This document shows, in pieces, positions 7,386 to 56,919 of a stretch of 64,000 bases of DNA. Both the position numbers and the translations under genes were made by a program. Below the pieces are notes generated by a model. It ran no database searches and was not told the DNA's origin. It worked only from the letters and a program-made list of their open reading frames with translations. Origin of the DNA: the human T2T-CHM13v2.0 reference genome, Homo sapiens; assembly GCF_009914755.1 (NCBI RefSeq), contig NC_060942.1. One strand, written 5' to 3'. Numbering within the stretch: the stretch's first letter is position 1; each line of letters begins with the position of its first letter.

Positions 7386-9551
7386 GGCTGGAGGCTAATG
7401 CAGTTATCTATTGCAATGGTCTGAACCAAGGTAGAGGAAATAGGCATGGAGGCAAAAATAATTTAAGAGGTCTTTGATTTGGCAAATGATAGAATTGAAG
7501 AGAATTGGAGACTTCGTATACAATTTTTAATTTTAAGTTCGTCTGAAAAATCAGATCAGGCTACACTGGACCCAAGAACTCAGGTGGCAAAAATCTGCAG
7601 AGTTGAGTTTGCCCCAGTTTGTCCCAGTCTCTCCAAGGCCTTCTTGATTCTTTCCATTGCTTGCCTACCTACCCCTGCAAGAATTTGAGCTTAAGACCCC
7701 TGCCTTTGTTGAAGCTTTCTGGCTTTGAAATAGATACAAACATGAGAAGCATTACTATCTAAAAGGCCCCACATTATATCCTGTGTTCCCTCTGGCACGT
7801 ATATTTAAATCGGACCTCTTAGGTCTCTTTTAATATATCATTCATTTTTTTTACATTCTGGTTCTAAAAGTATTACATGTCTGTTGTGGAAAACATAGAA
7901 AATACAACATGTATATTATCCCCAAATCCTATAGTCCTCTTGGATTTTGTTTTAGCTTTCCATATATCTTGGAAGTGGTGATTAGGACTCACAGGCCACC
8001 ACCAGGAAGGAGCCAATCCTCTCTGTCTCCACTTGGGTAAACTTTATCGCATTTCTTAACCCAGATCCCAGGATGTTTCAGGACTAGAGCAGAGAGTTTT
8101 TTCCCAAACATCCATGGAAGAAAATTAAACAAGCTGTATTTTCCTCTTTGCTTTTGTGCATTTTAAGTCCATCATTCTGGGGGTTGCTAAGAATGTTTTT
8201 GAAACAATCAAAAGTTCAGGCAATTAAGTGGTTTTTTACATTGCCCCTCATGTCTCTTAGTGTTTCAAGAAAACATTTTCCATTCATGTTAGTTATCTCA
8301 AATTATTTTAAAAAATGAGCCTTAAGTGTACGATTTGTAAGTATGTGACAAAGTTCTTTTAAAACTGCTTGAATAATAGAAAAAACATGACATGCCTCTT
8401 GGAGAGCACAATGGACCATAATAATGTGAGGGAGAACAGATAAGAATGGATGTAATGGTTAGAATTAAATGATGTCTGACAATTACTTTCAATTTGAACT
8501 GAGGTGAAGAAAATCAGAATTACAATACTCTTGTGATTAAACTTTGATGAGATGAAAATGTCATTGTTTGATGAGAATTTTTTATTAGAGTTCAAAGAAT
8601 ATGAATGATTTAACCACAACATACTAACACCACAGGGCTGAATAATCTATATCTGAATTTCTCAAGTCTTCCTTACTGCAGGTCACTGGAGAAATCTCAG
8701 CTGCTCTCATTCCTCAGTTCTGTGACTGTTTCCATAATATCGGGTTTTGGAACAACAAGATAAAACTCAAGTCCTTTGTGATAAGTTTTGACATTGAAAT
8801 CTTGGAGTAGCTTAATATGGTGAAACTTTTCCAGGAGCCAAGTACTAAAATTTAGACTCATTTTTTTAAAGAAATAAATTTTAGAGACTAGATGAGAGAA
8901 ATGGAAAAATCCTGCTTTTATTCTGCATTCATTGATGAAATCAAGTGAGTCTTTTCATTTCATAAGAAGAATCTGTTTCCCTTTAAAGTGACGTTTTGGC
9001 AATTAAAATTGAGGTATGGGCTTGAGTTTGTTAAAGACAATGCATAGCCCGGTTCTCTTTGGGGCACTAATTACAATATAGGATGACAGGTACATGCTGA
9101 CTTAGCACAGGGACTTTTTTCCGTACAGGGGCAACGGCTGTCTTAGTGATTCCTGCAGTCAATCGAGGGCAGAAGAGCTGGGAGCCCTTTTCCACCTACT
9201 TTGCTGCTACTGTGGGATGAGTGCTGTCCTTCCCTCCCTCTTCTCTTTTCCTCTCTTTCCTTTTTGGGGGCCCCAAATTTAAAAAATAGTTTTCCACAGT
9301 CATTGGTAGTACATTTTTTCCCACATTTTTAAAGATATTTTTTCTTCCAAGAGTCTGAAGTCAAAATGTTTGGGGACTTAGGGTACAATCCGGTAGTTTG
9401 GAAACAGGAAGGTGATAGTTATGATCAGTCCTATTTTTATAAATGCAAATCTTGGTCCTCTTATTGAAAGAAAGAGAAAGTACTGAAAATAGTCATTCTA
9501 TCCAATCATTCCCCGAAGCTGTTGGCAGTGTAACAATGTTACAGTTTGGCC

Positions 9552-44669: not shown

Positions 44670-45619
44670 ACTTTAACAAGCAGACCAAGAGATAGAGTGC
44701 TGTGTGCGGTTAGTACCAAAGACTAGATTCATAGAATCCTCACTGTGGCCATTTTGATACAGACTGAATTGGAACAGGACAATGTAGAACACAGAGGAAG
44801 AACAGCAACAGGAGTGGAAACAAGACAACAAAAAGGCCCTGCATGAGCTGTGCACAGAAATGTTCCCTTACTTGCACTGGGCTAAGATTTTCACCAATTC
44901 TTCAGGAAAAAAGAAAATGGAAGTTAGCATTGAAATGACACCAAGTATTGTTGGTTTTGGTTTCAATCAGATACATATGTATTGAACAAACTCTATCTTT
45001 CATATATTAAGGAAGGCTCTGGTGTTAATAAAATAGCATGAAAATAAATTCCTGCAGGAATCAGGTGGGAGAGAGACTACAGGTGGAGAAGATTTAACAT
45101 AGAGATTTGGAGTAATTTGTTTGGAAAATGTGCTATGGAAGGCACGTAATATAAATAATAAGGTTTTGGTCAGCTAGCAGCACATTTGAAGCTAGCATGG
45201 ATGTGTAGGGAGGTCATCAAGATTCTATAGTTTTCCTTAGTAAGGCTCTGCAGTTGGGAGGAGGAGCAGGATGAACGGGTGGAGGGAACTGGGTCAAGCT
45301 TGGCACAGTACCCACTTAAATATTGAAGTGGCTGACCTTGCTGCCTGGGCTAATTATCATCATCATAATCACTAAAAAATTTTTTTGAGCTCTTACTATA
45401 TGCCAGTTTCTGTTCTTAAGTCTTTAAATGGATCATCTTTGGGCTGGGCAGGAGGCATGTGATCATAAGAGAATCAGCAAGCTGTGTAAGATGGAAAGGC
45501 AGGCAGAGTCATTCCAAAGCTTAGTAAAGGTTCTAGAAATTTGTATTCAACTGCTTCAGTGTATACTGAACATGGATGAAGTTCAGTATGAGAAATTCAG
45601 CTTTAAAGATTTGACAGTT

Positions 45620-45974
45620 CCAAAATTAATATTGTTATAATGTCCATACTACCCAAAATGATCTATTGATTTAATGAAATCCCTATCAAAATTTCAATGA
45701 CATTTTTCCTAGAAATAAAAAAAAATTCTAAAATTTTCACGGAACTACAGAAAACTCTGAATAGCCAAAGTAATCTTATGCAAAAAAGAACAAAGCTGGA
45801 GGCATCTCATTACCTGACTTCATAATATACTACAAAGCTATAGTAATCAAAGCAGCATAGTACTGGCGTAAAAATTGATGTACAGACTAATGGAACAGAC
45901 AGGAGGGCACAGAAATAAATCTGCACATTACAATCCATTGTTTTTTGACAAAGAAGCCAAGATGTATACACTGA
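45620..45974 (+). mobile_element. L1M(A) ORF2 remnant, left half (interrupted)
   Basis: aatgtccatactacccaaa...aagaacaaagctggaggcatc...tttttgacaaagaagccaag. Confidence 0.88.
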
Positions 45975-46034
45975 AGCAGTTGAATACAAATTTCTAGAAC
46001 CTTTACCAAGCTTTGGAATCACTTTGCCTGCCTT

Positions 46035-46440
46035 CCCATATCTTGGGGGGTGTCCACCCCACTGCGATGTCGATCGTAATACCCAGCCAGGGGAGGGGGG
46101 TGATATTACTCCCCATATGGCGGGGGGTGTCCACCACCCTGCTATGTGGATCATAATACCCAGTGGGGTGGAGGGGGGTGATATTACTCCCCATATGGCG
46201 GAGGGTGTCCAGCCTCCTGCGATGTGGATTGTAATAACCAGGAGGAGAGACGGGGGCGATATTGCTCCCCATATCGCAGGGGGTGTCCACCCTTCTGCGA
46301 TGTGGACCGTAATACCCAGTGGGAGAGACGGGGTGATATTACTTCACATATGTCGGGGGGTGTCCACCCCACTGCGATGTAGACCCTAATACCCAGAGAG
46401 GGAGAAGGGGTAATATTACTCCCCATGTCATGGGGGGTGT
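46035..46440 (-). repeat. SATR2-like satellite block A (~5 x 77 bp)
   Basis: Units ggggtgtccacccc.ctgcgatgtggatcgtaatacccag...gatattactccccatat; family name from recall. Confidence 0.8.
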
Positions 46441-49400
46441 TCACCCTCCTTCTATATGGGGAGTAATATCATCCTCTCCCATCCTGGATATTAGGAACAA
46501 TTTCACAGGGTGTGTGTACACAGCCTGCAATGTTGAAAGTAATGTCATCCTCTCCCCCTCCGGATATTAGGAACAATATCACAAAAGGACTGTACACTTT
46601 TTGCGATATTTCGAGTAATATCATCCTGTGATTCCCTGAATATTGGGAGACATATTTTCCACAAGGTGGGTGTACACTCATTGCTATACTGGGAGTAACA
46701 TCCTACTGTACCCCCCGGAAATTATGAGCAATATCACAGGGGTGCACAGCCATTGCCATAGCAGAAGTAATATCATGCGCTCCCTCACTAGTTTTTAGGA
46801 ACAATATCACAGGGGGAAGTACACCTTCTGGGGTATTGGGAATAATATCATCATCTCTTCTTGTAGATATTAGGTACAATATCACGGGGGGGGGTGTACA
46901 CCCCTTGCTCTATTAGAAGTAATATCGTTCTCGCCTCTTCTAGATTTTACCAATAATATCACAAGCGGGGTGTACATCCCTTGTTATATTGGGAGTAATA
47001 GCATCTTCTTTCAACCTGGATATTGAGAACAATATTACATGGGGGTGTACATCCCTTCAATATTCGGAGTAACAGTATCTTCTCCACTCCTGGATATAAG
47101 AAACAATATCACAGGCAGGGTGTACACCCCTTGTTGTATTGGGAGTAATAGCATCTTCTTTCAACCTGGATATTGAAAACTGTATCACATGGTGAGTGTC
47201 CATGCCTTCAATATTGGTAGTAATACTAATTTCTTCCCTCCTGGATATAAGAAACAATATCACGGGTGTGGTGTACACCCCTTGCAATATTGGGAGTAAC
47301 GTCACCTCTCCCTATGTGGTTATTACGGAGAAAATCACAGGGTGGCTGTACACTTCCTACGTTATTGGGAGTAATATCATCCACAACCCCCCTGGATGGC
47401 AGGAACCGTATCACAGAAGGGGTGTACAGCCCCTGCGATATTGGGAGTAATATTATTCTCTTGTCCCTGTACGTTAGGAACTATATCACAGGGGGGCTGT
47501 ACACCTTCTGTGATATTAGAATTAATGTTATCATCTTCCCCACTGAATATTAGGAACAATATCACAGAAGGGTGTACACCCCCTGCGATCAGGCCAGTAA
47601 TATCATCGGCTCCTTCCCTGGATATTAGGAACAATTTCACAAGGTGTGTACACCCCCTGCGCTATTGGGAGTAACATTATTCTCTCTTCCCCTCGATATT
47701 AGAAAGAATATCACAGGTGGAGGGTACACCCCACCCCCTGCGATATTGGGAGTAATATCATCCTCTTTTAACCTGGATATTAGGAGCGGTGTCACAGGGG
47801 GCGTGTACACTTCCTTCGATACTGGGAGTAATATCCTCTCTCCCCGTAAATAGTAGGAAAAATATCAAAGGTGTGTACAGCACTTGCGATATTGAGAGTA
47901 ACATAATCCTCCCCTCACCTGGATATCAGAAATAATATCACGGTGGGGGGGTGTACACAACCTGCGATATTGGGAGTAACATTATTTTCTGCCCCCATGG
48001 ATGTTGAGAACAGTATCACAAGGGCGGTGTACACCGTCTGCGATAATGGGTGTAATAGCGTCCTCACTCCCCCTAGATATTAGGAACAATACCACAGGCA
48101 GATTACACACCCGCTGCAACGTTGGGAGTAATATCATCCTTTCCCCCCTGGATACTAGGAACAATATCTCATGGGAGGTGTACAGCCCATTCCATTTTGG
48201 GAGTAATATTAATTTCTTCATTGCTGGAAATAAGAAACAATATAACAGGGGTGGTGTACACACCCTGTGATATTGCCAGTAATAGAGACTTCGCCCCCCC
48301 CACCGGATATTAGGAACAACATCAAAAAGGGGTGTATACAGCGATATTGGGATTAATATCACGCTCTCCCCCTTGAATTTAGGAACAATATCAAAGAAAG
48401 GGTGTCCACCCCTTGCGATATTGACAGTAATTACATCCTCTCCCTCCGTGGATTTTAAGAACAATACCACATAGTTGGTGTACACGCACTGCGATACTGG
48501 AAGTAATGTCATCCTCTTCCCCCTGGATATTAAAAACAGTATCACAGAGGTGGTCTACACCCCCCGCGATGTGGCCAGCAATATCATCCTTTCCCCCACT
48601 GGATATTGGGAACAACATCACAGGGGTGTGTACACCTCCTGCGCTATTGGGAGTAGTATCATTCTCTCTTCTTCTGGATATTAGGAATAATATCATAGGT
48701 GGGGTGTACAACCCCTGCGATACTGGCAGTAATATTATCCTCACGCAACCTGGATATTCAAAACCGAATAACAGGGGGGTGTACACCCCCTGCGATATTG
48801 GTAGTAACATCATTCTCTCCCCCACTTGATATTACAAAACAATATCCCAAGAAAGGGTGTACACCCTCTGAGATATTGAGAGCATTATCATCCTCTCCCC
48901 AACTAAATATGAGGAACAATGTTGGTGGGGGGGATGTACACCCCTTGCGATATTGGGAGTAATATCCTCTCCCTCCCTGGATATTAGAAACAATATCAAA
49001 GGGGTCGTGTACACCCCCTGTGATATTGGGAGTAATATCATTCTAATCTCCCCGGGATATTTGGAACAATATTATGGAGGGGGTGTACAACCTCTGCCAT
49101 ATTGTGAGTCATATCATTTCTCTTCCCCTGGATATTAGGAACAATATCTAGAGTAATAATATCCCTTCCCTTCTGGACATTAAGAACAATATCACTGGGT
49201 GGGTGTACAGCCCCTGCAATATTGGGAGTAATATCATCCTCTCCCTCTCTCGATATTAGGAACAATATCCCAAGGTGGGTGTACATCCCCTGCGATATTG
49301 GGCGTAATATCATCGTCTGCCAACATGGATATTGGGAACAATTTCACGGGGTGGGGAGGGGGTGTACACCTTCTTCCATGTTGGGAGTAATATCATCCTC

Positions 49401-50325
49401 TCCCCCCGAATTGTAGGAAAAACTTCGAAAGGGTTTTACCACTTGTGCAATATTGGCAGTAATATCATCCTCTCCCCACCTAGATATTAGGAACTATATC
49501 ACAGGATGCTGTACACTTCTTGCGATATTGGGAGGAATATCATCCTCTCCCATCATGGATATTAAGAACAATATCACAGGGAAGGTGGACAACCCCTGCG
49601 ATATTGAGGGTAATATTATGCTCTCCCCTTCTGGACATCAGGAATAATATCACAGGAGGTGTGTACAACCCCTGCGATATTAGGAGTAATGCCATCTTTT
49701 CCCCCCGAATATAAGAAACAATATCACAGGAAGATGTACACCCCCTGAGATATTGGGAGTAATATCATTCTCTCCTACTCTGGATATTCAGAACAATATA
49801 ACGGGGGTGGAGTGGCGTGTATACCCCTGCGGTATTGGGAGTAATATCTTCCTCTCCACCGCTGGCTATTAGGAACAATGTCACAGAAGGGGTGTACACC
49901 CCCTGGTGTATTGGGAGTAATATCATCCTCTCCGTCCCTGGATATTAGGAACAATATCACTAAGGAGTGTACACCTCCTGTGATACTGAGACTAGTATCA
50001 TCCTCTTGCCCCCTGGATATTAGGAACAATATCACAGGGGTGGTGTACACCTCCTGCGAATTTGGGGCAAATGTCATCCTCTCCACCTTTGGATATTAGA
50101 GACAATATCACAGGAGGGGTCTACGCCCCCTGCAATATTGGGAGTGATATCATCCTCTCCCCCCCGGATATCAGGAACAATATCACAGAAGGGATGTGCA
50201 CCCACTGTGATATTTTGAGTAATGTCATCCTCTACCCGCTGGCTATTAAGAACAATACAGGTGGTGTAAGCTTTCCGCGACATTGGGAGTTATAGCATCG
50301 TCTCCCCCAGATATCAGGAACAATA
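46441..50325 (+). repeat. SATR1-like satellite block B (~50 x 75 bp)
   Basis: Units gggggtgtacaccccctgcgatattgggagtaatatcatcctctccccctggatattaggaacaatatcaca. Confidence 0.9.
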
Positions 50326-50604
50326 ATATTAATATTAATAATTAATATCAATTATTAATATTAATAAAATGATGCTAATTAATATCAATCATTACTATTA
50401 GTAATTAAAGTGCTTACAATGAAATTAATGTTAATAACATCAATAAGAGCCATAGTAAATAAAACATTAGCAATTTATATTGATTAATAACTAGTATTAG
50501 TATTAATAATTAATAATACCATTATGTTAGAAATCAGTATTAGTTGCTATCAATAATTAATAATAATAATTAGTGATTACTAATGACATTATCACTATTA
50601 TCAT
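50326..50604. repeat. AT-rich low-complexity spacer between inverted satellite arms
   Basis: taatattaatattaataattaat... strongly AT-rich. Confidence 0.9.
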
Positions 50605-51670
50605 TTCTAATACCGCACGGGGTCTACACCCAACTGTGATTTTGTTCCTAATAGTCAGGGCAGGAGAGCATATTAGTTTCAATATCGCAGTAGGTGTACA
50701 CCCGCCCTGTGATACTGATTCTAATATCCACGGGTCAGAGTATGAAATTACTCCAAATAGAGCAGGGGGTGTCCAGCCACCCGGTGATATTGCTCCTAAT
50801 ATTCACAAAAGAAGAGAATGATATCACTGCCAATATCGCAGGGAGTGTACACCTCTTCTGTGATACTGTTCCTAGCATCCGGAGGGGGAGAGGATGATAA
50901 TACTTAAAGTATCGCAGGATGTGTACACCCACCCTGTGATATTGTTCCTAATATCCAGGAAGGGAGAGGATGATATTACTCCCCTCATAGCACAGATGTA
51001 CACCCACCCTGGGATGTTGTTCCTAATGTCCATGGAGGAGAGAGGCTGATATTACTCCCAATATCGCAGGGGGTGTACATCCACCCTGTGATACTGCTCT
51101 TAATATTCAAAGGCCGGGAGGTTGATATTATTCCCAACATCGCAGAAAGTGTACACCCCCGTGTGATATTGTTCCTAATATCCAGAAGGGGAGAAGATGA
51201 TATTACTCCCCATATCGCAGGAGGTGTACAGCCACTCTGTGATTTTTTTTAATAAGCGGGGGGGTGGGGGGAGAAGATAATATTATTCTCAATTTCTCAG
51301 GGAATGTACAACCCCCTGTGAGATTGTCCTTAATATTCAAAGACAGAGGGGATGATATTACTCCCAATATCGCAGAAAGTGTACACCCCCTAGTGATATT
51401 GCTCCCATGATCCACGATAGAAGAGGATGATATTACTTTCAATATCACAGAATGTGTACACGCACCCAGTGATATTGTTCCTAATTTCAAGGTGGGAGAG
51501 GATGATATGACACCTAATATCGCAGAGAGTAAAAACACTCCTGTGATATTGTTCTTAATATCAAGGGTGGGGAGAGGACGATATTACTGCCAATACTGCA
51601 GAGGGTGTACACTTGTCTGGAAATAGTTCATAATTTCAAGAAGGGAAGATGGTATTACTCACAATATCAT
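50605..51670 (-). repeat. SATR1-like block C (~14 units), inverted relative to B
   Basis: Units gtgtacacccc.ctgtgatattgttcctaatatccag...gatgatattactcccaatatcgcag. Confidence 0.9.
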
Positions 51671-51689
51671 AAACAAGCTGTCGGTCCAC

Positions 51690-51971
51690 CGTGGATCGTA
51701 ATATCCAAGGGAAGAGAGGGGGGTGATATTACTCCCCATATCGTGGGGGGTGCCCACCCCCCTGCGATGTGGATTGCAATATCCAGGGGGCAAGATGGGG
51801 ATGATATTACTCCCCATATCGCGGGGAATGTCCACCCCACTGCGATGTGGATCATAATATCCACGATATGGGGGTGATATTACTCCACATATTGCAGGGG
51901 GGTGCCCACCCCCCTGCAATATGGATTGTAATATCCAGGGGAGGAGAGGGGGGTGATAATACTCCCCATAT
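51690..51971 (-). repeat. SATR2-like block D (~4 units), same type and orientation as A
   Basis: gtggatcgtaatatcc...gatattactccccatatc. Confidence 0.8.
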
Positions 51972-52027
51972 TCTCTTATGATCTCATGCCTCCTGCCCAG
52001 CCCAGAGATGAGACTTTCCTTACCTAA

Positions 52028-52712
52028 TGAGAAAAGGACAGTCTCTTCAACAAACAGTGCTGGAAAAACTGGATATCCACATGTGGAAGAATAAAAATGG
52101 ACCCTCATCTCACAACATACACAAAAATCAACTCAAAATGGATTAAAGACTTAAATGTATGACCCGAAAATGTAAAACTATGGAAGAAAATATAAGGGAA
52201 AACCCTATGATGTTGATCTGGACAGTGATTTTTTTGGATATGACCCGAAAGGCACAGACAACAAAAGCAAAAATAAAGAAATGGGATTATGTCAAACTAA
52301 AAAGCTTCTGCCCAAGCAAGGAAATAATCAATAGAATGAAGAGACAACCTATGGAATGAGAGAAAATATTTGCAAACCATACATCTGATAAGTGGTCAAT
52401 ATCCAAAATATATAAGGAAATCAAATGACTCAATAACAGGAAATCAAATAACCTGATTTACAAATGGGCAAAGGATCTGAGTAGATATTTCTCCAAAGAA
52501 GACATGGAAATGGCCAATTGCTAAGAAAGTAGATTTAAGTGTTCTTTTTACAAAAAAAGATAAGTATTTGAGATAGGGCTTTGTTAAATAGCTGAATTTT
52601 GCCAATCTACAATACATAAATATATCAAAACATCATGTTGTATGCTATAAATATATACAATTTTTATTTGTCATTTAAGGTAAACAAATTTTTAAAAATG
52701 AAACAAACAAAA
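52028..52712 (+). mobile_element. L1M(A) right half: ORF2 remnant and 3' end
   Basis: gaaaaggacagtctcttcaa...aaaatcaactcaaaatggattaaagactt; continues the L1 sequence broken at 45974. Confidence 0.88.
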
Positions 52713-54890
52713 AGATTTGACAATTCCAGAATGAATGACTGAGATAAAATGTAGTGATCTGATCATCTTGAAAGGTCATTACAATTGATTGAATTATTTT
52801 GGCTGTTGTGGAATATTTTCCACGTGGCCTTGTTTGGAAGCAGGGTTATAAATAAGGTCATCCCTTCCTGATTTTAGGGATGTGAAATCAAACTTAGTAT
52901 TTTAAAATTTTGTTTTGAGTTGGGCTTCCACTGGTAGAAAAATAAATGAGAACTTAATTCCATTATTTAGAATTGAAAAAATAGATTTTTAAACAAAATG
53001 ATTTGTCTACCTGTGCTGTGGTGGAAAAGTATGGGTGTCTGTGACAGGGTTTCCTTTATCAAGTGAAAAAACTTCAACCCAGACTGGGCTAATTTTTCAT
53101 TTGGTAATATGGCCATATCTGGGAAGCAATCATTTCCAGATCTTAACTGGCATTTCAATTACTAACTTTTACATTTCACATGTTTAATGGAACCTGGAAA
53201 AGGAGACACAGATTTTAGTCTTCTTGGCTAGTTTGTGGGTATAGAACAATCTTAACTCGGACATCGTGGAAGTCAGTGAGCTGTGTAGACAGGACCTTCT
53301 GGGGAGCTGATTGTTCATGCACTGCAAAACTCTCTTTCAATTATTGAAATCAACTTTTTTCCAATGCCTCAAAGCAAGGACGATTCTGAGGCCTTTGAAA
53401 GCAATTTTTCATTTTGTTTCTTTGCATACTGACACATCTCGATGTTTACTACGTAACAGAAGAGCTAATTTAAAGCAGTGTGTTGCTAAGCCTAGCTCTC
53501 TCCCTATGTCTCCCTGCCTCTGCCACCCTGGATCCTGTGGTCCTCAGTACTTTTCTGTGCCATACATTAGAATCCCAGAATGGCATTCTAAATAGGAGAC
53601 AGGCGGCAGAGTAGTAAAAATTGAGTGAATTTATGATTCAACTGAGAAGATTCTCTTTCCAGTATTCTTTTCCCCAGTAAAGTGATTGTACTGATTCCTT
53701 TGTAAATTTGGTCGCTTGGAAAGTTCTAAGGATTGAGCAAATTGCTTTTAAAGAATCTCCATTTTCTGCATATGTATGTCACCTACTCAAAATCTTATTT
53801 TCCAGTTTAAATTATTTTCTAACTAATATGTTATACTTCCCTCAGCAATCCCTCAACTGTAAGAAAAATGCATTTTTTTCTTCTAGTGATAAATAGTAAG
53901 TTCATTGCATTTCTTAGAATATAAACATTCATAATTGATAACGTCCACACATCTCCCCAGTCCTCATGTTTGTATTATTAGCTTAATATGGAAAGACTGT
54001 GTGTGTGTGTGTATGTGTGTGTGTGCATTTGTGTCCATAATAAAAGAGAAATCTTATGTGTCCATAATAAAAGAGAAATCTATTTTGCTAATGAGAGTTT
54101 CCAATCAACAAATTTTGCCTTGTGAATTACAGTTTTAAAGTACTTTCAATTATTAAATTTATTGCTATTTAAAATCCTATTTAGGAACCTTGCTATTAAT
54201 ACTAGAACTTTAGTTACAGCCTCAAGTTTGAGCCCCTCCCAAAAAATCTCATCTCCTGGAGCCTGCAAAAGTGTATAAAATATGTTCAGAAAAATACATC
54301 TTGGACAGCCATGGAGTGGAATGGAGAGCTGGTGGGATATATGGCTGAGAGGAGAGGTCCAAGACAGTGCCTTTCCTGGTCACAAGGTCAAGGTCAATAT
54401 GGCTCACATGGGTGATGCCATTTTCTTCTTGTTCTCATAACATCCAGAAGATGTGCTGGCTGATCAGCAGTTTTGCAGAACTGCTACTTTGGTTCTCAGG
54501 GAGTGCTCTAGAATATATTTACATAACTTGAGAAAAATGTCTTGAGCATATACTGCATGGCCAGTACTGTGCCTGAGCCCTCTTAGTGTCTAGATGTGAA
54601 TTGTAGTTATAGTCTCATGGCTAAAAGTTGTTTTGTATTTCAGTCTCTTCTGCCACCTGGTTTTTAAAATGTTTTCCTTTTTGAGAAAATCACAATTACC
54701 TGTATATGTAAATTTTATTGTTAAAGATGAGTACTGATATTTTGACTTTATTTTGGGTCATAGGCTTGCAAAGCTTTACTTAAGACTTCAGTAAGTAAAG
54801 GCCCATGACTGATTTGTAGAATCACTGAAATAATAGTAAGACTCTACTTCTCAGAAGATGAAACAGAGTCTTAGAGAAGTTTATTACTAA

Positions 54891-55206
<316 letters not shown>

Positions 55207-56919
55207 TGACAGTTGTGTTTTTAACTTGAATTTTATACTTAATTTTTGATAAGAATTTTTATTTGGGGTGTATTATGATATTTGAATATATGATATTTTG
55301 TGGGTATGGAGATTGCAGATGATTTACCAGATTTGCAGAGCAAGTAATAGAGGACAGTTTATTCCTTCTTAGTTTTCACTTGCTCTTCTTCCACATGTGT
55401 TAGCCACTGTTAGCTCCACTCCAGATGAGATAGAGCTTCTTTTCTGTCTGAGCATGAATTTGCTGGGAGCCATGAGATAAGTTTTTTCTTAGGTCACATA
55501 GTTATTAAATAAATATTCACTGAGTTTAATTTATGAACAACGAAAGTAAAACCAGACACGATTCCTCCCCAAAAGATGAGCTCATGTGAAACAGTGGGGA
55601 ATGCATCATCTTTCAGGTTACCAGTGTATGGTGGCACTACAGTATCAAGGTTATGTATTATAGACAATAAGTAAGGAAGACATATCTGAGCTGATTCTAA
55701 GATCAGAATCTGGTGATGTGTTAATTGAACACTTGGCAATTGCTTTCTTAGTTTACCCATTCAGATTACTTATCCTATTGAGGAAATGAAGATAGAAAAG
55801 ATTGGTGGCTTTATTATATGTTACACTGATGCTTTCGGTTAGAGAGCATGGGTTGCATAAAATATTTTAAAATGCGGATGGATAATTTTTAGACCAGTTA
55901 GGATGGCTACATTAGAGAATCCAAGACAATGTCTGCCATTATCTTTACAATACACACTGATTTTTGTGTGTACCTTGTCATTATGTAAGCTTCCTACAGG
56001 GCTGTGGTAAGTCATGGACAGGGTTAAGGAGAAGGGTACATGTCGAGAAACTAAATCACATTTGGAGAGGAGATGTAACAAAGGTAGGGTTCAGAGGTTT
56101 ACTGGTAACAATTCCAAATTTGGAATGAAAAAGTTACTCTTTGTTTAGCGTTCGAGTTGGGAGTTTGCCCTGCAAGAGACAGTCAACCACTGACTTCAGT
56201 CGAACGTACTTGGAAAGGGAAGAACTTAAACCAGCCATGAACAGAAGAAAGCCAGGTTTTCTGGAAACATCGCCAAAACCCAGCAATTTCTCAGAATTTT
56301 CAGAGGCGCCAGGGGGGTGTTTGCATTTCAATGGAAAAAGTTCTGAAAGCTCTGGAAACTATTCTCAGTTTTACTTTCTCATTGAAAGGCAAAAACCATG
56401 GCTGTAAGTAAGAGACAGAAGCATTTGCTATGGCTTTGTTAAGAATTAAGAAAAGGGACCTCTGGAAAATTTGAATTGTCCAATCCTTTGCCACAGAGCC
56501 AAGACAAAGTGGTCCAAGTCATAATGGCAAATAGAAAATAAAAGTACTGTTAGCTTTAAGACAAAAGTACTCAATGTCTGGAGCCACTTTCCACCAGCCT
56601 GGGTTTTAAAAGAAAGACAGAACTTTCTAGATTTAAAGAGACATAGTTGCAGCTGTATTGCAATAACATAATGGTAGCTCTCATAAGTACATACTTGTCA
56701 TAAGTATTTAATCTTTTCACACACTACAAATACCTTGTTAGGTTGCTAAGGGGTTACAGTACTTATGAGAAACGATCTTTGAGAAGAAGAAGAATACTAT
56801 TTCCAGTTAAGATTTAGAAGAATTTTAAGTAGATCTATAGTAACAGTCAAAAGTAGAAAATATGCAGTATAGCAAACAAAATTATTTTTGGTCTAATTCT
56901 ACCACATAAAACTTGAAGG

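What the first reader, a model, noticed from the sequence alone, without database searches (positions are those of the whole stretch)
45975..52027. 6-kb satellite cassette inserted as one unit into an L1, carrying ~60-bp foreign flanks
Seen: L1 ORF2 sequence stops at ...gccaagatgtatacacTGA (45974) and resumes with apparently no loss at TGAgaaaaggacagtctc (52028), so TGA is duplicated or a microhomology. Between lie 60 bp of non-L1, non-satellite DNA (45975-46034), ~5.9 kb of SATR satellite, and 56 bp of non-L1 DNA (51972-52027). There is no polyA tail, long TSD, TIR or LTR. Inference: the satellite did not grow in situ from L1 but arrived as a cassette, possibly copied from a donor locus with its flanks. 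That would be a non-TPRT mobility route for an interspersed satellite family usually annotated only as SATR1/SATR2.
Basis: partly seen in the sequence, partly recalled or inferred. Interest (0 to 1): 0.8.

Follow-up and report, generated by a model that had tools for sequence, protein, structure and literature searches.

The report
Satellite cassette patched into broken L1
A 5.9-kb block of SATR1 satellite sits inside an old L1 as the scar of a repaired DNA break: its short "foreign" flanks are inverted copies of DNA lying next to the break, so the locus records how an interspersed human satellite reached a new site without retrotransposition.

Summary
An old, 5'-truncated L1 (starts 45622) is split with no loss, and 12 of 13 other L1 copies align across the join. 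The insert has no poly-A, long TSD, TIR or LTR.

The flanks are not foreign.
- Left flank 45964-46039 is the reverse complement of 45491-45566 (72/76). This includes 11 nt shared with the L1 end, which explains the "TGA duplication".
- Right flank 51970-52011 is the reverse complement of 45433-45474 (40/42).
- At that upstream site the two pieces lie 16 nt apart, with no satellite between them.
- The last 16-18 nt (to 52027) are an imperfect inverted copy of the first 18 nt of the resumed L1 (14/18).

The satellite (46040-51969) is SATR1. It is a pre-formed composite: (+) block, (-) block, AT-rich spacer, (+) block. The same layout occurs at 13 other genomic places. Its first and last monomers together make exactly one monomer.

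There are two close paralogues. chr4:22.567-22.577 Mb is a later partial duplicate that carries the right flank and L1. chr15:79.574-79.577 Mb matches at 92-96%.

Best reading: microhomology-primed, fold-back break repair that copied or captured the satellite. Whether this took one step or two is unresolved. It is a new member of a known kind.

The parts
45433..45474 (+). Upstream template for the right flank (its reverse complement is 51970-52011)
   Evidence: 40/42 identical; found again. Single-copy in the genome apart from the flank and its chr4 duplicate.
45475..45490 (+). 16 nt that separate the two template pieces at the upstream site. They are absent from the insert, where the satellite stands in their place.
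45491..45566 (+). Upstream template for the left flank. Its last 11 nt (45556-45566) are the inverted match to the L1 end.
   Evidence: 72/76
45567..45621 (.). 55 nt of non-L1 DNA between the template and the 5'-truncated start of the L1
   Evidence: L1 hits start at 45622 or later in 39 of 39 cases
45622..45974 (+). L1 ORF2 fragment, upstream half. Its last 11 nt (45964-45974, GTATACACTGA) are shared with the reverse complement of 45556-45566.
45975..46039 (+). Left flank: an inverted copy of 45491-45555
46040..46440 (+). GC-rich SATR variant block, (+) orientation
   Evidence: No SATR1 primer hits fall here.
46441..50325 (-). SATR1 block, (-) orientation. The strand switch lies at the unit's own palindrome, around 46430-46450.
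50326..50598 (.). AT-rich non-satellite spacer between the inverted SATR1 blocks
50599..51668 (+). SATR1 block, (+) orientation
51669..51969 (+). GC-rich SATR variant block, (+) orientation. The array ends in ...CCCCAT, the same unit phase at which it begins.
51970..52011 (+). Right flank: an inverted copy of 45433-45474
52010..52027 (+). Imperfect inverted (palindromic) copy of the first 18 nt of the resumed L1. It overlaps the right flank by GA.
   Evidence: 14/18 in chr18 and in chr4. Only 1 of 54,900 control positions reaches 14/18.
52028..52518 (+). L1 ORF2 fragment, downstream half (it continues further 3')
47061..56548 (+). Stretch duplicated to chr4:22567393-22576509

Best explanation
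A double-strand break (or collapsed fork) in the L1, at or just before the TGA at 45972-45974, was repaired by microhomology-primed synthesis with template switches.

The proposed steps are:
1. One broken end was extended on the neighbouring DNA 400-540 bp upstream, in inverted orientation. An 11-nt inverted match served either as the fold-back primer site or as the final annealing site. This synthesis made the left and right flanks.
2. The other end acquired an 18-nt palindromic fold-back copy of itself.
3. In the same repair episode, the growing strand left the upstream template at ...CCAT.
4. It then copied or captured a pre-formed SATR1 composite, probably one turn of a circle or a circle opened at a single point.
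5. It came back to the upstream template 16 nt further on.
6. The two extended ends joined at a 2-nt overlap.

No L1 base was lost. Later, part of the locus was duplicated to chr4. A copy on chr15 belongs to the same burst.

Shown: the local inverted origin of every flank base, the microhomologies, the pre-formed architecture, and the paralogues.
Inferred: that this was a single episode, the circular intermediate, the enzymes, and the dates.

The confidence given (0.5) is for the single-episode version. That the insert is a break-repair product with locally templated flanks, in one step or two, I hold at about 0.85.
For: Flank origins:
- The flanks are inverted copies of 45491-45566 (72/76) and 45433-45474 (40/42). 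They are colinear and lie 16 nt apart at the source.
- They are single-copy elsewhere in the genome.
- The terminal 18 nt are an inverted copy of the adjoining L1: 14/18, with 1 of 54,900 control positions as good.

Junction overlaps:
- 11 nt between the L1 end and the template.
- CCAT at template to satellite.
- AT at satellite to template.
- GA between the two tracts.

Feasibility of the fold-back:
- Only 65 of 55,600 window positions (0.12%) have such an 11-mer inverted within 600 nt upstream.
- In the ssDNA fold of 45433-45974, the centroid pairs the last 10 nt with 45556-45565.

The L1 is intact across the join.

The satellite arrived pre-formed:
- Its block layout and both kinds of strand-switch junction recur in 21 of 46 fetched SATR loci rows, representing 14 places.
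- The chr15 copy is colinear at 92-96%.
- The array's end joined to its start makes one gapless monomer. PMC7403614 gives this signature for reintegrated satellite circles (passages read).

Timing fits one burst:
- Flanks versus template differ by 6/118 = 5.1% (95% CI 1.9-10.7).
- chr18 versus chr4 unique DNA differs by 201/4336 = 4.64%.

One episode needs no coincidence to explain why a rare satellite lies exactly inside a ~140-nt repair patch.
Against: - No outgroup genome could be examined, so neither the empty site nor a patch-only intermediate was seen.
- A 5.9-kb excursion is long for polymerase-theta-type snap-back synthesis. The rest of the patch (123 + 18 nt) looks like an ordinary small templated scar, which fits a two-step history equally well.
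- The minimum-free-energy fold leaves the 3' end unpaired, and the fold as a whole is unremarkable (z = 0.43).
- The equal-phase signature could arise by chance. I estimate about 1 in 76 if the ends are free. It may be nearer 1 in 8 if the right junction only needs an AT (my estimate, not a tool result).
- No donor array at matching age is proven. chr15 lacks the outer ~0.3 kb and ~1.1 kb of the cassette.
- The three-copy tree is nearly a trichotomy, with shared derived sites 8/2/2.
- None of the array edges with at least 200 nt of flank listed, nor the chr4 edges, shows local inverted flank copies. The pattern is therefore not shown to be general.
- The ancestral status of the upstream site rests on parsimony alone. 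My recalled likeness of it to a MIR SINE was not confirmed.
Confidence: 0.5

Rival explanations
1. Two separate events. First, an ordinary fold-back templated repair left a ~140-nt patch in the L1: an inverted copy of 45433-45555 plus the 18-nt palindromic tract. Later, a second break inside that patch captured the SATR1 composite (for example an opened circle) and lost 13-16 nt.
For: - At the source the two flank pieces are contiguous apart from 16 nt. Without the satellite the patch is a typical small templated insertion (listings and abstracts of PMC11724301 and PMC4912351).
- The satellite junctions (CCAT, AT, a 16-nt loss, equal phase) look like stand-alone microhomology-mediated capture (passages of PMC7403614).
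Against: - It needs a rare satellite insertion to fall by chance inside a ~140-nt patch.
- The inverted repeat this patch forms with the upstream site has a 397-nt spacer. Breaks provoked by such repeats are expected near the centre, not inside an arm (established knowledge, not tested here).
- No copy of the patch without satellite exists in this genome.
Confidence: 0.3
2. Reverse polarity. The flanks came first, as an insertion of unknown origin in the L1. The upstream segment 45433-45566 is a later inverted copy of them, including 11 nt of L1, made before the satellite entered or by skipping it.
For: - The 11 nt of L1-type sequence at 45556-45566 would then be simple copying rather than a chance match.
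- The reference L1 copies show that ...ATACACTGA is L1 sequence.
Against: - It leaves the origin of about 120 nt unexplained. No other source exists in the genome.
- It needs at least three events within 600 bp.
- By my inspection, the junctions this model predicts (45432/45433 and 45566/45567) show no microhomology.
- The palindromic tract shows that the patch was built from DNA at the L1 break itself.
Confidence: 0.07
3. One reading: cassette and flanks were copied together from a distant donor locus.
For: - The cassette architecture is shared with other loci.
- One other locus (chr4) does carry the right flank.
Against: - chr4 also carries the palindromic tract, the downstream L1 half and 4.5 kb of chr18 unique DNA, so it is derived from this locus.
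- Both flanks match local DNA at 95%.
- No other genomic match exists.
Confidence: 0.01
4. In-situ growth. A single satellite-like seed in the patch expanded into the array by slippage and unequal exchange.
For: - The array has changed in length since insertion. About 650 nt are missing in chr4 and about 1.4 kb in chr15, relative to chr18.
Against: - The complex layout (two strand switches plus a 273-nt AT-rich spacer) is shared, colinear, with chr15 and with many older loci.
- The 16 nt at the source site have no convincing likeness to the unit (my inspection).
Confidence: 0.03
5. Transposon-like or retrotransposon-like mobility of a SATR element with defined ends.
For: - The composite is dispersed over most chromosomes: at least 460 matches, with 722 candidates of which 40 were scored.
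Against: - There is no poly-A, no TIR, no LTR and no TSD beyond an explained TGA.
- Array edges at other loci fall at different unit phases and different block positions.
Confidence: 0.01

Closest known systems
Spread of Rsp-like satellite to new euchromatic loci in the Drosophila simulans clade (PMC7403614; abstract and passages read)
   Same: - A satellite reaches new loci through microhomology-mediated repair (4-7 nt at junctions).
- Short duplications of target sequence occur at some junctions.
- The authors propose eccDNA reintegration, with the signature that the first and last truncated monomers make one monomer.
- Mixed clusters move as higher-order units.
   Different: - There the satellite inserts into another satellite (1.688), not into a transposon.
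- The passages read describe no inverted local templated flanks and no palindromic tract.
- It is a different phylum and a different satellite.
Fold-back (snap-back) templated inverted insertions at double-strand breaks: PMC11724301 (yeast), PMC4912351 (polymerase theta), PMC5728401 (SD-MMEJ). Only search listings and the starts of abstracts were seen.
   Same: - Inserted tracts are inverted copies of DNA next to the break.
- They are primed at short inverted matches.
- Several cycles of synthesis occur.
- The final join is at microhomology.
   Different: - The reported tracts are mostly about 5-34 bp (PMC11724301 abstract).
- Here the tracts are 65 + 42 nt, copied from 400-540 nt away.
- Here they also enclose a 5.9-kb satellite.
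MMBIR/FoSTeS complex rearrangements and fold-back inverted duplications in human genomes (PMC8421209, PMC3907307; listings and the starts of abstracts only)
   Same: - Template switching at microhomology.
- Inverted copies.
- Multi-junction products from one event.
- Long copied tracts are possible.
   Different: - Those are mostly disease or tumour alleles.
- This is an old, apparently fixed germline scar with a satellite as the long tract.
SATR1-SATR1v 'core unit' of macaque arrays (bioRxiv 10.1101/2025.08.04.668424; passages read)
   Same: The order of parts matches: GC-rich SATR variant array, inverted SATR1 array, AT-rich non-satellite repeat, forward SATR1 array.
   Different: - Macaque cores are mostly subtelomeric, multi-copy and flanked by large inverted segmental duplications.
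- Here there is a single interstitial core inside an L1, with 60-nt locally templated flanks.
- Homology of the AT-rich part to macaque 'rnd6' could not be tested, because no sequence was available.

Membership tests
SATR1 satellite | Matches the SATR1 consensus | tested here: met
   Two primers designed on the SATR1 consensus (supplement of PMC3606032) hit 35 and 22 times at 3 or fewer mismatches. All hits lie within 46481-51941, and about 0.01 are expected by chance. The outer GC-rich blocks get no SATR1_L hits and may be a variant; the names SATR1v and SATR2 were not testable.
SATR1 satellite | Interspersed (interstitial) distribution | tested here: met
   Matches on most chromosomes at 66-80% identity. 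It is called an interstitial satellite in 10.1101/2021.07.12.451456 (passage read).
TPRT retrotransposition (L1/SVA-type) | 3' poly-A and a 7-20-nt target-site duplication | tested here: not met
   There is no poly-A at either end. The only repeat is TGA, which is explained by the 11-nt overlap with the template.
DNA transposon / LTR element | Terminal inverted or direct repeats at the two ends | tested here: not met
   Each flank's only other match in the window is the upstream site; neither matches the other end.
Fold-back / template-switch break repair (SD-MMEJ, TMEJ, MMBIR class) | Inserted tracts identical to nearby DNA in inverted orientation | tested here: met
   72/76, 40/42 and 14/18
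Fold-back / template-switch break repair (SD-MMEJ, TMEJ, MMBIR class) | Microhomology at the junctions | tested here: met
   Overlaps of 11, 4, 2 and 2 nt. The 11-mer configuration occurs at 0.12% of control positions.
Fold-back / template-switch break repair (SD-MMEJ, TMEJ, MMBIR class) | Dependence on a particular polymerase or pathway | not testable with these tools
   This is an ancient germline event, so there is no enzymology.
eccDNA reintegration | First and last truncated monomers together form one monomer | tested here: met
   The array end (51969) joined to the array start (46040) aligns without a gap to internal units. All the best joins lie on one diagonal, end minus start = 5929.
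eccDNA reintegration | Existence of SATR1 circles | not tested
   No circle-sequencing data were available here.
Segmental duplication (chr18 to chr4) | At least 1 kb at 90% identity or more, including non-repeat DNA | tested here: met
   Window 47061-56548 matches chr4:22567393-22576509. The unique part is 93.4% identical by BLAST over 4615 nt, with 4.64% substitutions.
MIR SINE (upstream template region) | Similarity to MIR copies | tested here: inconclusive
   A profile built from 9 MIR-like copies, found with a recalled 20-nt core motif, gave no hit. The alignment score was 16.5 against 14.1 +/- 2.0 for shuffles. The profile's 5' part was poor, so the test is weak.

The most novel reading that the evidence does not exclude
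Interstitial SATR1 composites spread as circular copies that are read through, or captured, during fold-back and template-switch repair of chromosome breaks. On this reading, the chr18 locus is a fully legible fossil of one such jump, and it (or a lost master) seeded a short burst, roughly 15-30 million years ago, that also produced the chr4 and chr15 copies. That would give human interspersed satellites a defined, testable, non-retrotransposon mobility route.
Probability: 0.3. Interest if true: 0.65.

Novelty: new member of a known kind. Interest (0 to 1): 0.45.

Why it matters
How interstitial satellites such as SATR1 come to lie at dozens of unrelated sites is poorly documented in primates. 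In the 28 papers that mention SATR1, I found no account of an insertion junction. That statement rests on titles and the starts of abstracts, plus passages read in three of the papers.

At this locus both junctions, the intact target and the local templates can be read base by base. It therefore shows a concrete route: break repair with fold-back synthesis and template switching, possibly through a circle.

It also corrects a tempting misreading. The "foreign flanks" are a local repair patch, not cargo from a donor locus.

The work also shows that SATR1 "arrays" are copies of one structured composite, and that such composites seed segmental duplications, as in chr18 to chr4.

The biology of AQP4 and AQP4-AS1 is probably not affected. 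The insert lies in an intron of the antisense RNA.

Tried and rejected
- MIR origin of the upstream template. This was my recollection. A 20-nt recalled core motif found 3 seeds, and an iterated profile recruited 10 hits. That profile did not hit 45250-45700 even at E<=100, and the consensus alignment was no better than shuffles. I dropped it as evidence; the test was weak.
- Source of the 16 nt at 52012-52027. There is no other copy in the window at 3 or fewer mismatches. There is no other exact genomic copy, and none of the 94 one-mismatch genomic hits (which include the chr4 duplicate of this site) points to another source or lies near a listed SATR locus. The origin was then explained as an inverted copy of the adjoining L1.
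- Local inverted flank copies at other SATR array edges. None was found at the edges with at least 200 nt of flank listed, apart from low-complexity and neighbouring-satellite matches. Only +/-1.5 kb was searched at each edge. None was found at the chr4 edges within 40 kb.
- Circular-permutation test on the chr15 copy. My reference overlapped the query, so the result is void. In addition, the chr15 right edge abuts a younger L1.
- Rooting the chr18/chr4/chr15 trio. It is nearly a trichotomy, so no donor could be named.
The wider survey of SATR loci is therefore limited to 3.4-kb loci.
- No primate outgroup genome is reachable with these tools.
- bioRxiv supplements (the macaque SATR tables) are closed, and they may list the orthologous locus.

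Full report
**Setting**

The window is T2T-CHM13 chr18:27032001-27096000 (hub note; confirmed). The feature lies in intron 1 of AQP4-AS1.

**1.

The L1 is one element, split without loss:
- L1 ORF2 similarity starts at 45622-45636 in 39 of 39 non-self genomic hits. It starts at 45622-45628 in 11 of 11 fetched L1 loci. The L1 is therefore 5'-truncated there.
- In all 11 loci the half ending near 45974 and the half starting near 52028 hit the same copy, on the same strand and in order.
- With the halves joined in memory, 12 of 13 reference alignments span the join and the 13th starts at it. The references read ...ACACTGA/G-G... at that point.

The insert lies between these halves:
- 45975-46039 is non-L1, non-satellite DNA.
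- 46040-51969 is a satellite with a unit of about 76 nt.
- 51970-52027 is non-L1, non-satellite DNA.
- There is no poly-A, TIR or LTR.

**2. The flanks are local, not foreign**

- A genome search with the left junction found, besides itself and two L1 hits, one match 400 bp upstream on the opposite strand.
- In detail, 45964-46039 is the reverse complement of 45491-45566 (72/76), and 51970-52011 is the reverse complement of 45433-45474 (40/42).
- At the upstream site the two pieces are colinear and 16 nt apart, with no satellite between them.
- The upstream site is single-copy in the genome.
- The first 11 nt of the left match (GTATACACTGA, 45964-45974) are also genuine L1 sequence. The L1 end and the template therefore overlap by 11 nt.
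- This overlap explains the "duplicated TGA". The break can lie before TGA, with the first TGA copied from the template and the second belonging to the resumed L1.
- Only 65 of 55,600 control positions (0.12%) have such an 11-mer inverted within 600 nt upstream.
- When 45433-45974 is folded as single-stranded DNA, the centroid pairs the last 10 nt with 45556-45565. The minimum-energy structure does not, and the fold as a whole is unremarkable (z = 0.43).
- The remaining 16 nt (52012-52027) have no other genomic copy. Together with the preceding GA, they form an imperfect inverted copy of the first 18 nt of the resumed L1: 14/18 in chr18, 14/18 in the chr4 copy, and 15/18 across the two. Only 1 of 54,900 control positions reaches 14/18.

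Every base of the "foreign" flanks therefore has a template beside the break.

The junction overlaps are:

| Junction | Overlap |
|---|---|
| L1 end / upstream template | 11 nt |
| Template / satellite | CCAT |
| Satellite / template | AT |
| Left tract / right tract | GA |

**3. The satellite is SATR1 and came as a pre-formed composite**

Identity and layout:
- Primers designed on the SATR1 consensus (supplement of PMC3606032) hit 35 and 22 times. All hits lie within 46481-51941, and the strand flips.
- Strand-specific motifs and profile scans give the layout below.
- The first strand switch lies at the unit's own palindrome.

| Block | Coordinates | Orientation |
|---|---|---|
| GC-rich variant | 46040 to ~46440 | (+) |
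| SATR1 | to 50325 | (-) |
| AT-rich spacer | 50326-50598 | none |
| SATR1 | 50599 to ~51668 | (+) |
| GC-rich variant | to 51969 | (+) |

The same layout occurs elsewhere:
- The pattern of (-) block, 300-750-nt gap, (+) block is seen in 21 of 46 fetched SATR loci rows, which represent 14 genomic places.
- Of those 46 rows, 18 were fetched because they matched the spacer, so that subset is biased toward showing it. In the 28 rows fetched by satellite similarity alone, 7 show the pattern.
- The abutting (+)/(-) switch occurs in 11 rows.
- The macaque T2T preprint describes the same order of parts as a "core unit" (passages read).

The array is an exact circular permutation:
- The array begins right after ...CCAT and ends in ...CCCCAT.
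- Joining its end to its start gives one gapless monomer.
- All the best joins lie on one diagonal, end minus start = 5929.
- PMC7403614 proposes this signature for reintegrated satellite circles (passages read).

**4. Paralogues and timing**

chr4:
- chr4:22567393-22576509 is a partial duplicate of window 47061-56548.
- It carries the right flank, the palindromic tract, the downstream L1 half and about 4.5 kb of unique DNA, so it derives from chr18 after the insertion.
- Substitution divergence of the unique part is 201/4336 = 4.64%. Excluding CpG contexts it is 166/4244 = 3.9%.

chr15:
- chr15:79574061-79577385 (inverted) is colinear with window ~46340-50879 at 92-96% where it is in register.
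- About 1.4 kb present in chr18 is absent there.
- It carries none of the chr18 flanks.

Relationship of the three copies:
- With four other loci as outgroups, the three copies share 121 derived sites.
- Singleton sites number 38 (chr18), 80 (chr4) and 24 (chr15).
- Pairwise shared derived sites are 8 (chr4+chr15), 2 (chr18+chr15) and 2 (chr18+chr4). This is close to a trichotomy, so no donor can be named.

Timing:
- Flanks versus template differ by 6/118 = 5.1% (95% CI 1.9-10.7).
- That fits the chr4 figure and excludes a divergence of 15% (P = 0.0007).
- My inference, using recalled primate substitution rates, is that all these events fall roughly 15-30 million years ago.
- The next nearest SATR1 loci are only about 80% identical.

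**5. Mechanism**

- The anatomy is that of a repaired two-ended break. Both ends carry inverted copies of their own neighbourhood, there are short overlaps at every junction, and the target lost nothing.
- This is the pattern reported for fold-back or snap-back templated insertions and for template-switching replication repair (PMC11724301, PMC4912351, PMC5728401, PMC8421209, PMC3907307). For these papers I saw only search listings and the starts of abstracts.
- Either end could have done the long synthesis. The 11-nt match serves as the primer site in one version and as the final annealing site in the other, and the product is the same.
- The open point is the satellite. It may have been copied or captured during the same episode, as an excursion from the upstream template that returned 16 nt further on. 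I rate this at about 0.5. Alternatively, it entered the finished patch later, at about 0.3.
- One episode avoids the coincidence of a rare satellite landing inside a ~140-nt patch. Two steps fit the small size of typical fold-back tracts better.
- Reverse polarity (the upstream segment copied from the flanks) is less parsimonious, and the palindromic tract argues against it. It is not excluded without outgroups. My recalled MIR identity of the template was not confirmed.

**6. Generality**

- The edges of other SATR arrays fall at different phases and show no local inverted flank copies within the 3.4-kb loci. The chr4 edges show none either.
- The fold-back patch is therefore so far particular to this locus. 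The composite architecture, in contrast, is family-wide.

**7. Verdict**

- The "foreign flanks from a donor" reading is wrong.
- The "cassette arrived by a non-TPRT route" reading is right.
- The locus is a clean fossil of break-repair-mediated satellite insertion, followed by segmental duplication.
- It is a new member of known kinds: templated or fold-back repair scars, and satellite spread by microhomology or circles.
- It is of moderate interest, mainly because every junction is legible and the outgroup test is straightforward.

Noticed in passing
L075 (chr15:79570001-79580000) 7393-9075: A younger L1 (the label 'L1PA-like' is from recall) abuts the chr15 SATR copy directly. It ends in a poly-A near 9060-9075, and no satellite or obvious target-site duplication follows. 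The array edge there may have been removed by an L1-associated deletion.
   Followed up: partly
L075 4036-4053: A small perfect inverted repeat (8 nt + 2 nt spacer + 8 nt) lies about 15 nt outside the other chr15 array edge. It could be another fold-back scar or just AT-rich chance.
   Followed up: no
L017 (chr3:75.66 Mb) and L034 (chr11:67.99 Mb): The two SATR loci have almost identical block coordinates: (+) 402-1974, (-) 1839-2581, (+) 2992-3428 in L017, against 404-1968, 1835-2581, 2983-3423 in L034. They are probably a segmental-duplication pair.
   Followed up: no
window 54900-55206 (AQP4-AS1 exon 54929-55050): The second annotated AQP4-AS1 exon lies inside a multi-copy element that hits many loci at 76-86% (the label 'Alu-like' is from recall). 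This stretch is inside the block duplicated to chr4, so chr4 carries a copy of that exon region.
   Followed up: no
L006, L016, L022, L025, L032 (edges of SATR arrays): A second, shorter-unit relative of the satellite (units rich in ...GTGATATTAGGAGTAAC...) directly adjoins SATR arrays at several loci. Mixed arrays of two variants therefore seem common.
   Followed up: no
window 49150-49800 and 46800-48150: There are length differences between the paralogues. About 650 nt present in chr18 and chr15 have no in-register match in chr4. About 1.4 kb present in chr18 (and, from 47061, in chr4) have none in chr15. In addition, the chr4 segment matching 49810-50250 has an unusually long branch (38 singleton sites in about 430), which could reflect conversion from another array.
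   Followed up: partly
window 52008-52032: ATGAGA occurs twice, 19 nt apart, bracketing the core of the palindromic tract. This would fit repeated anneal-and-extend cycles at the final join.
   Followed up: no
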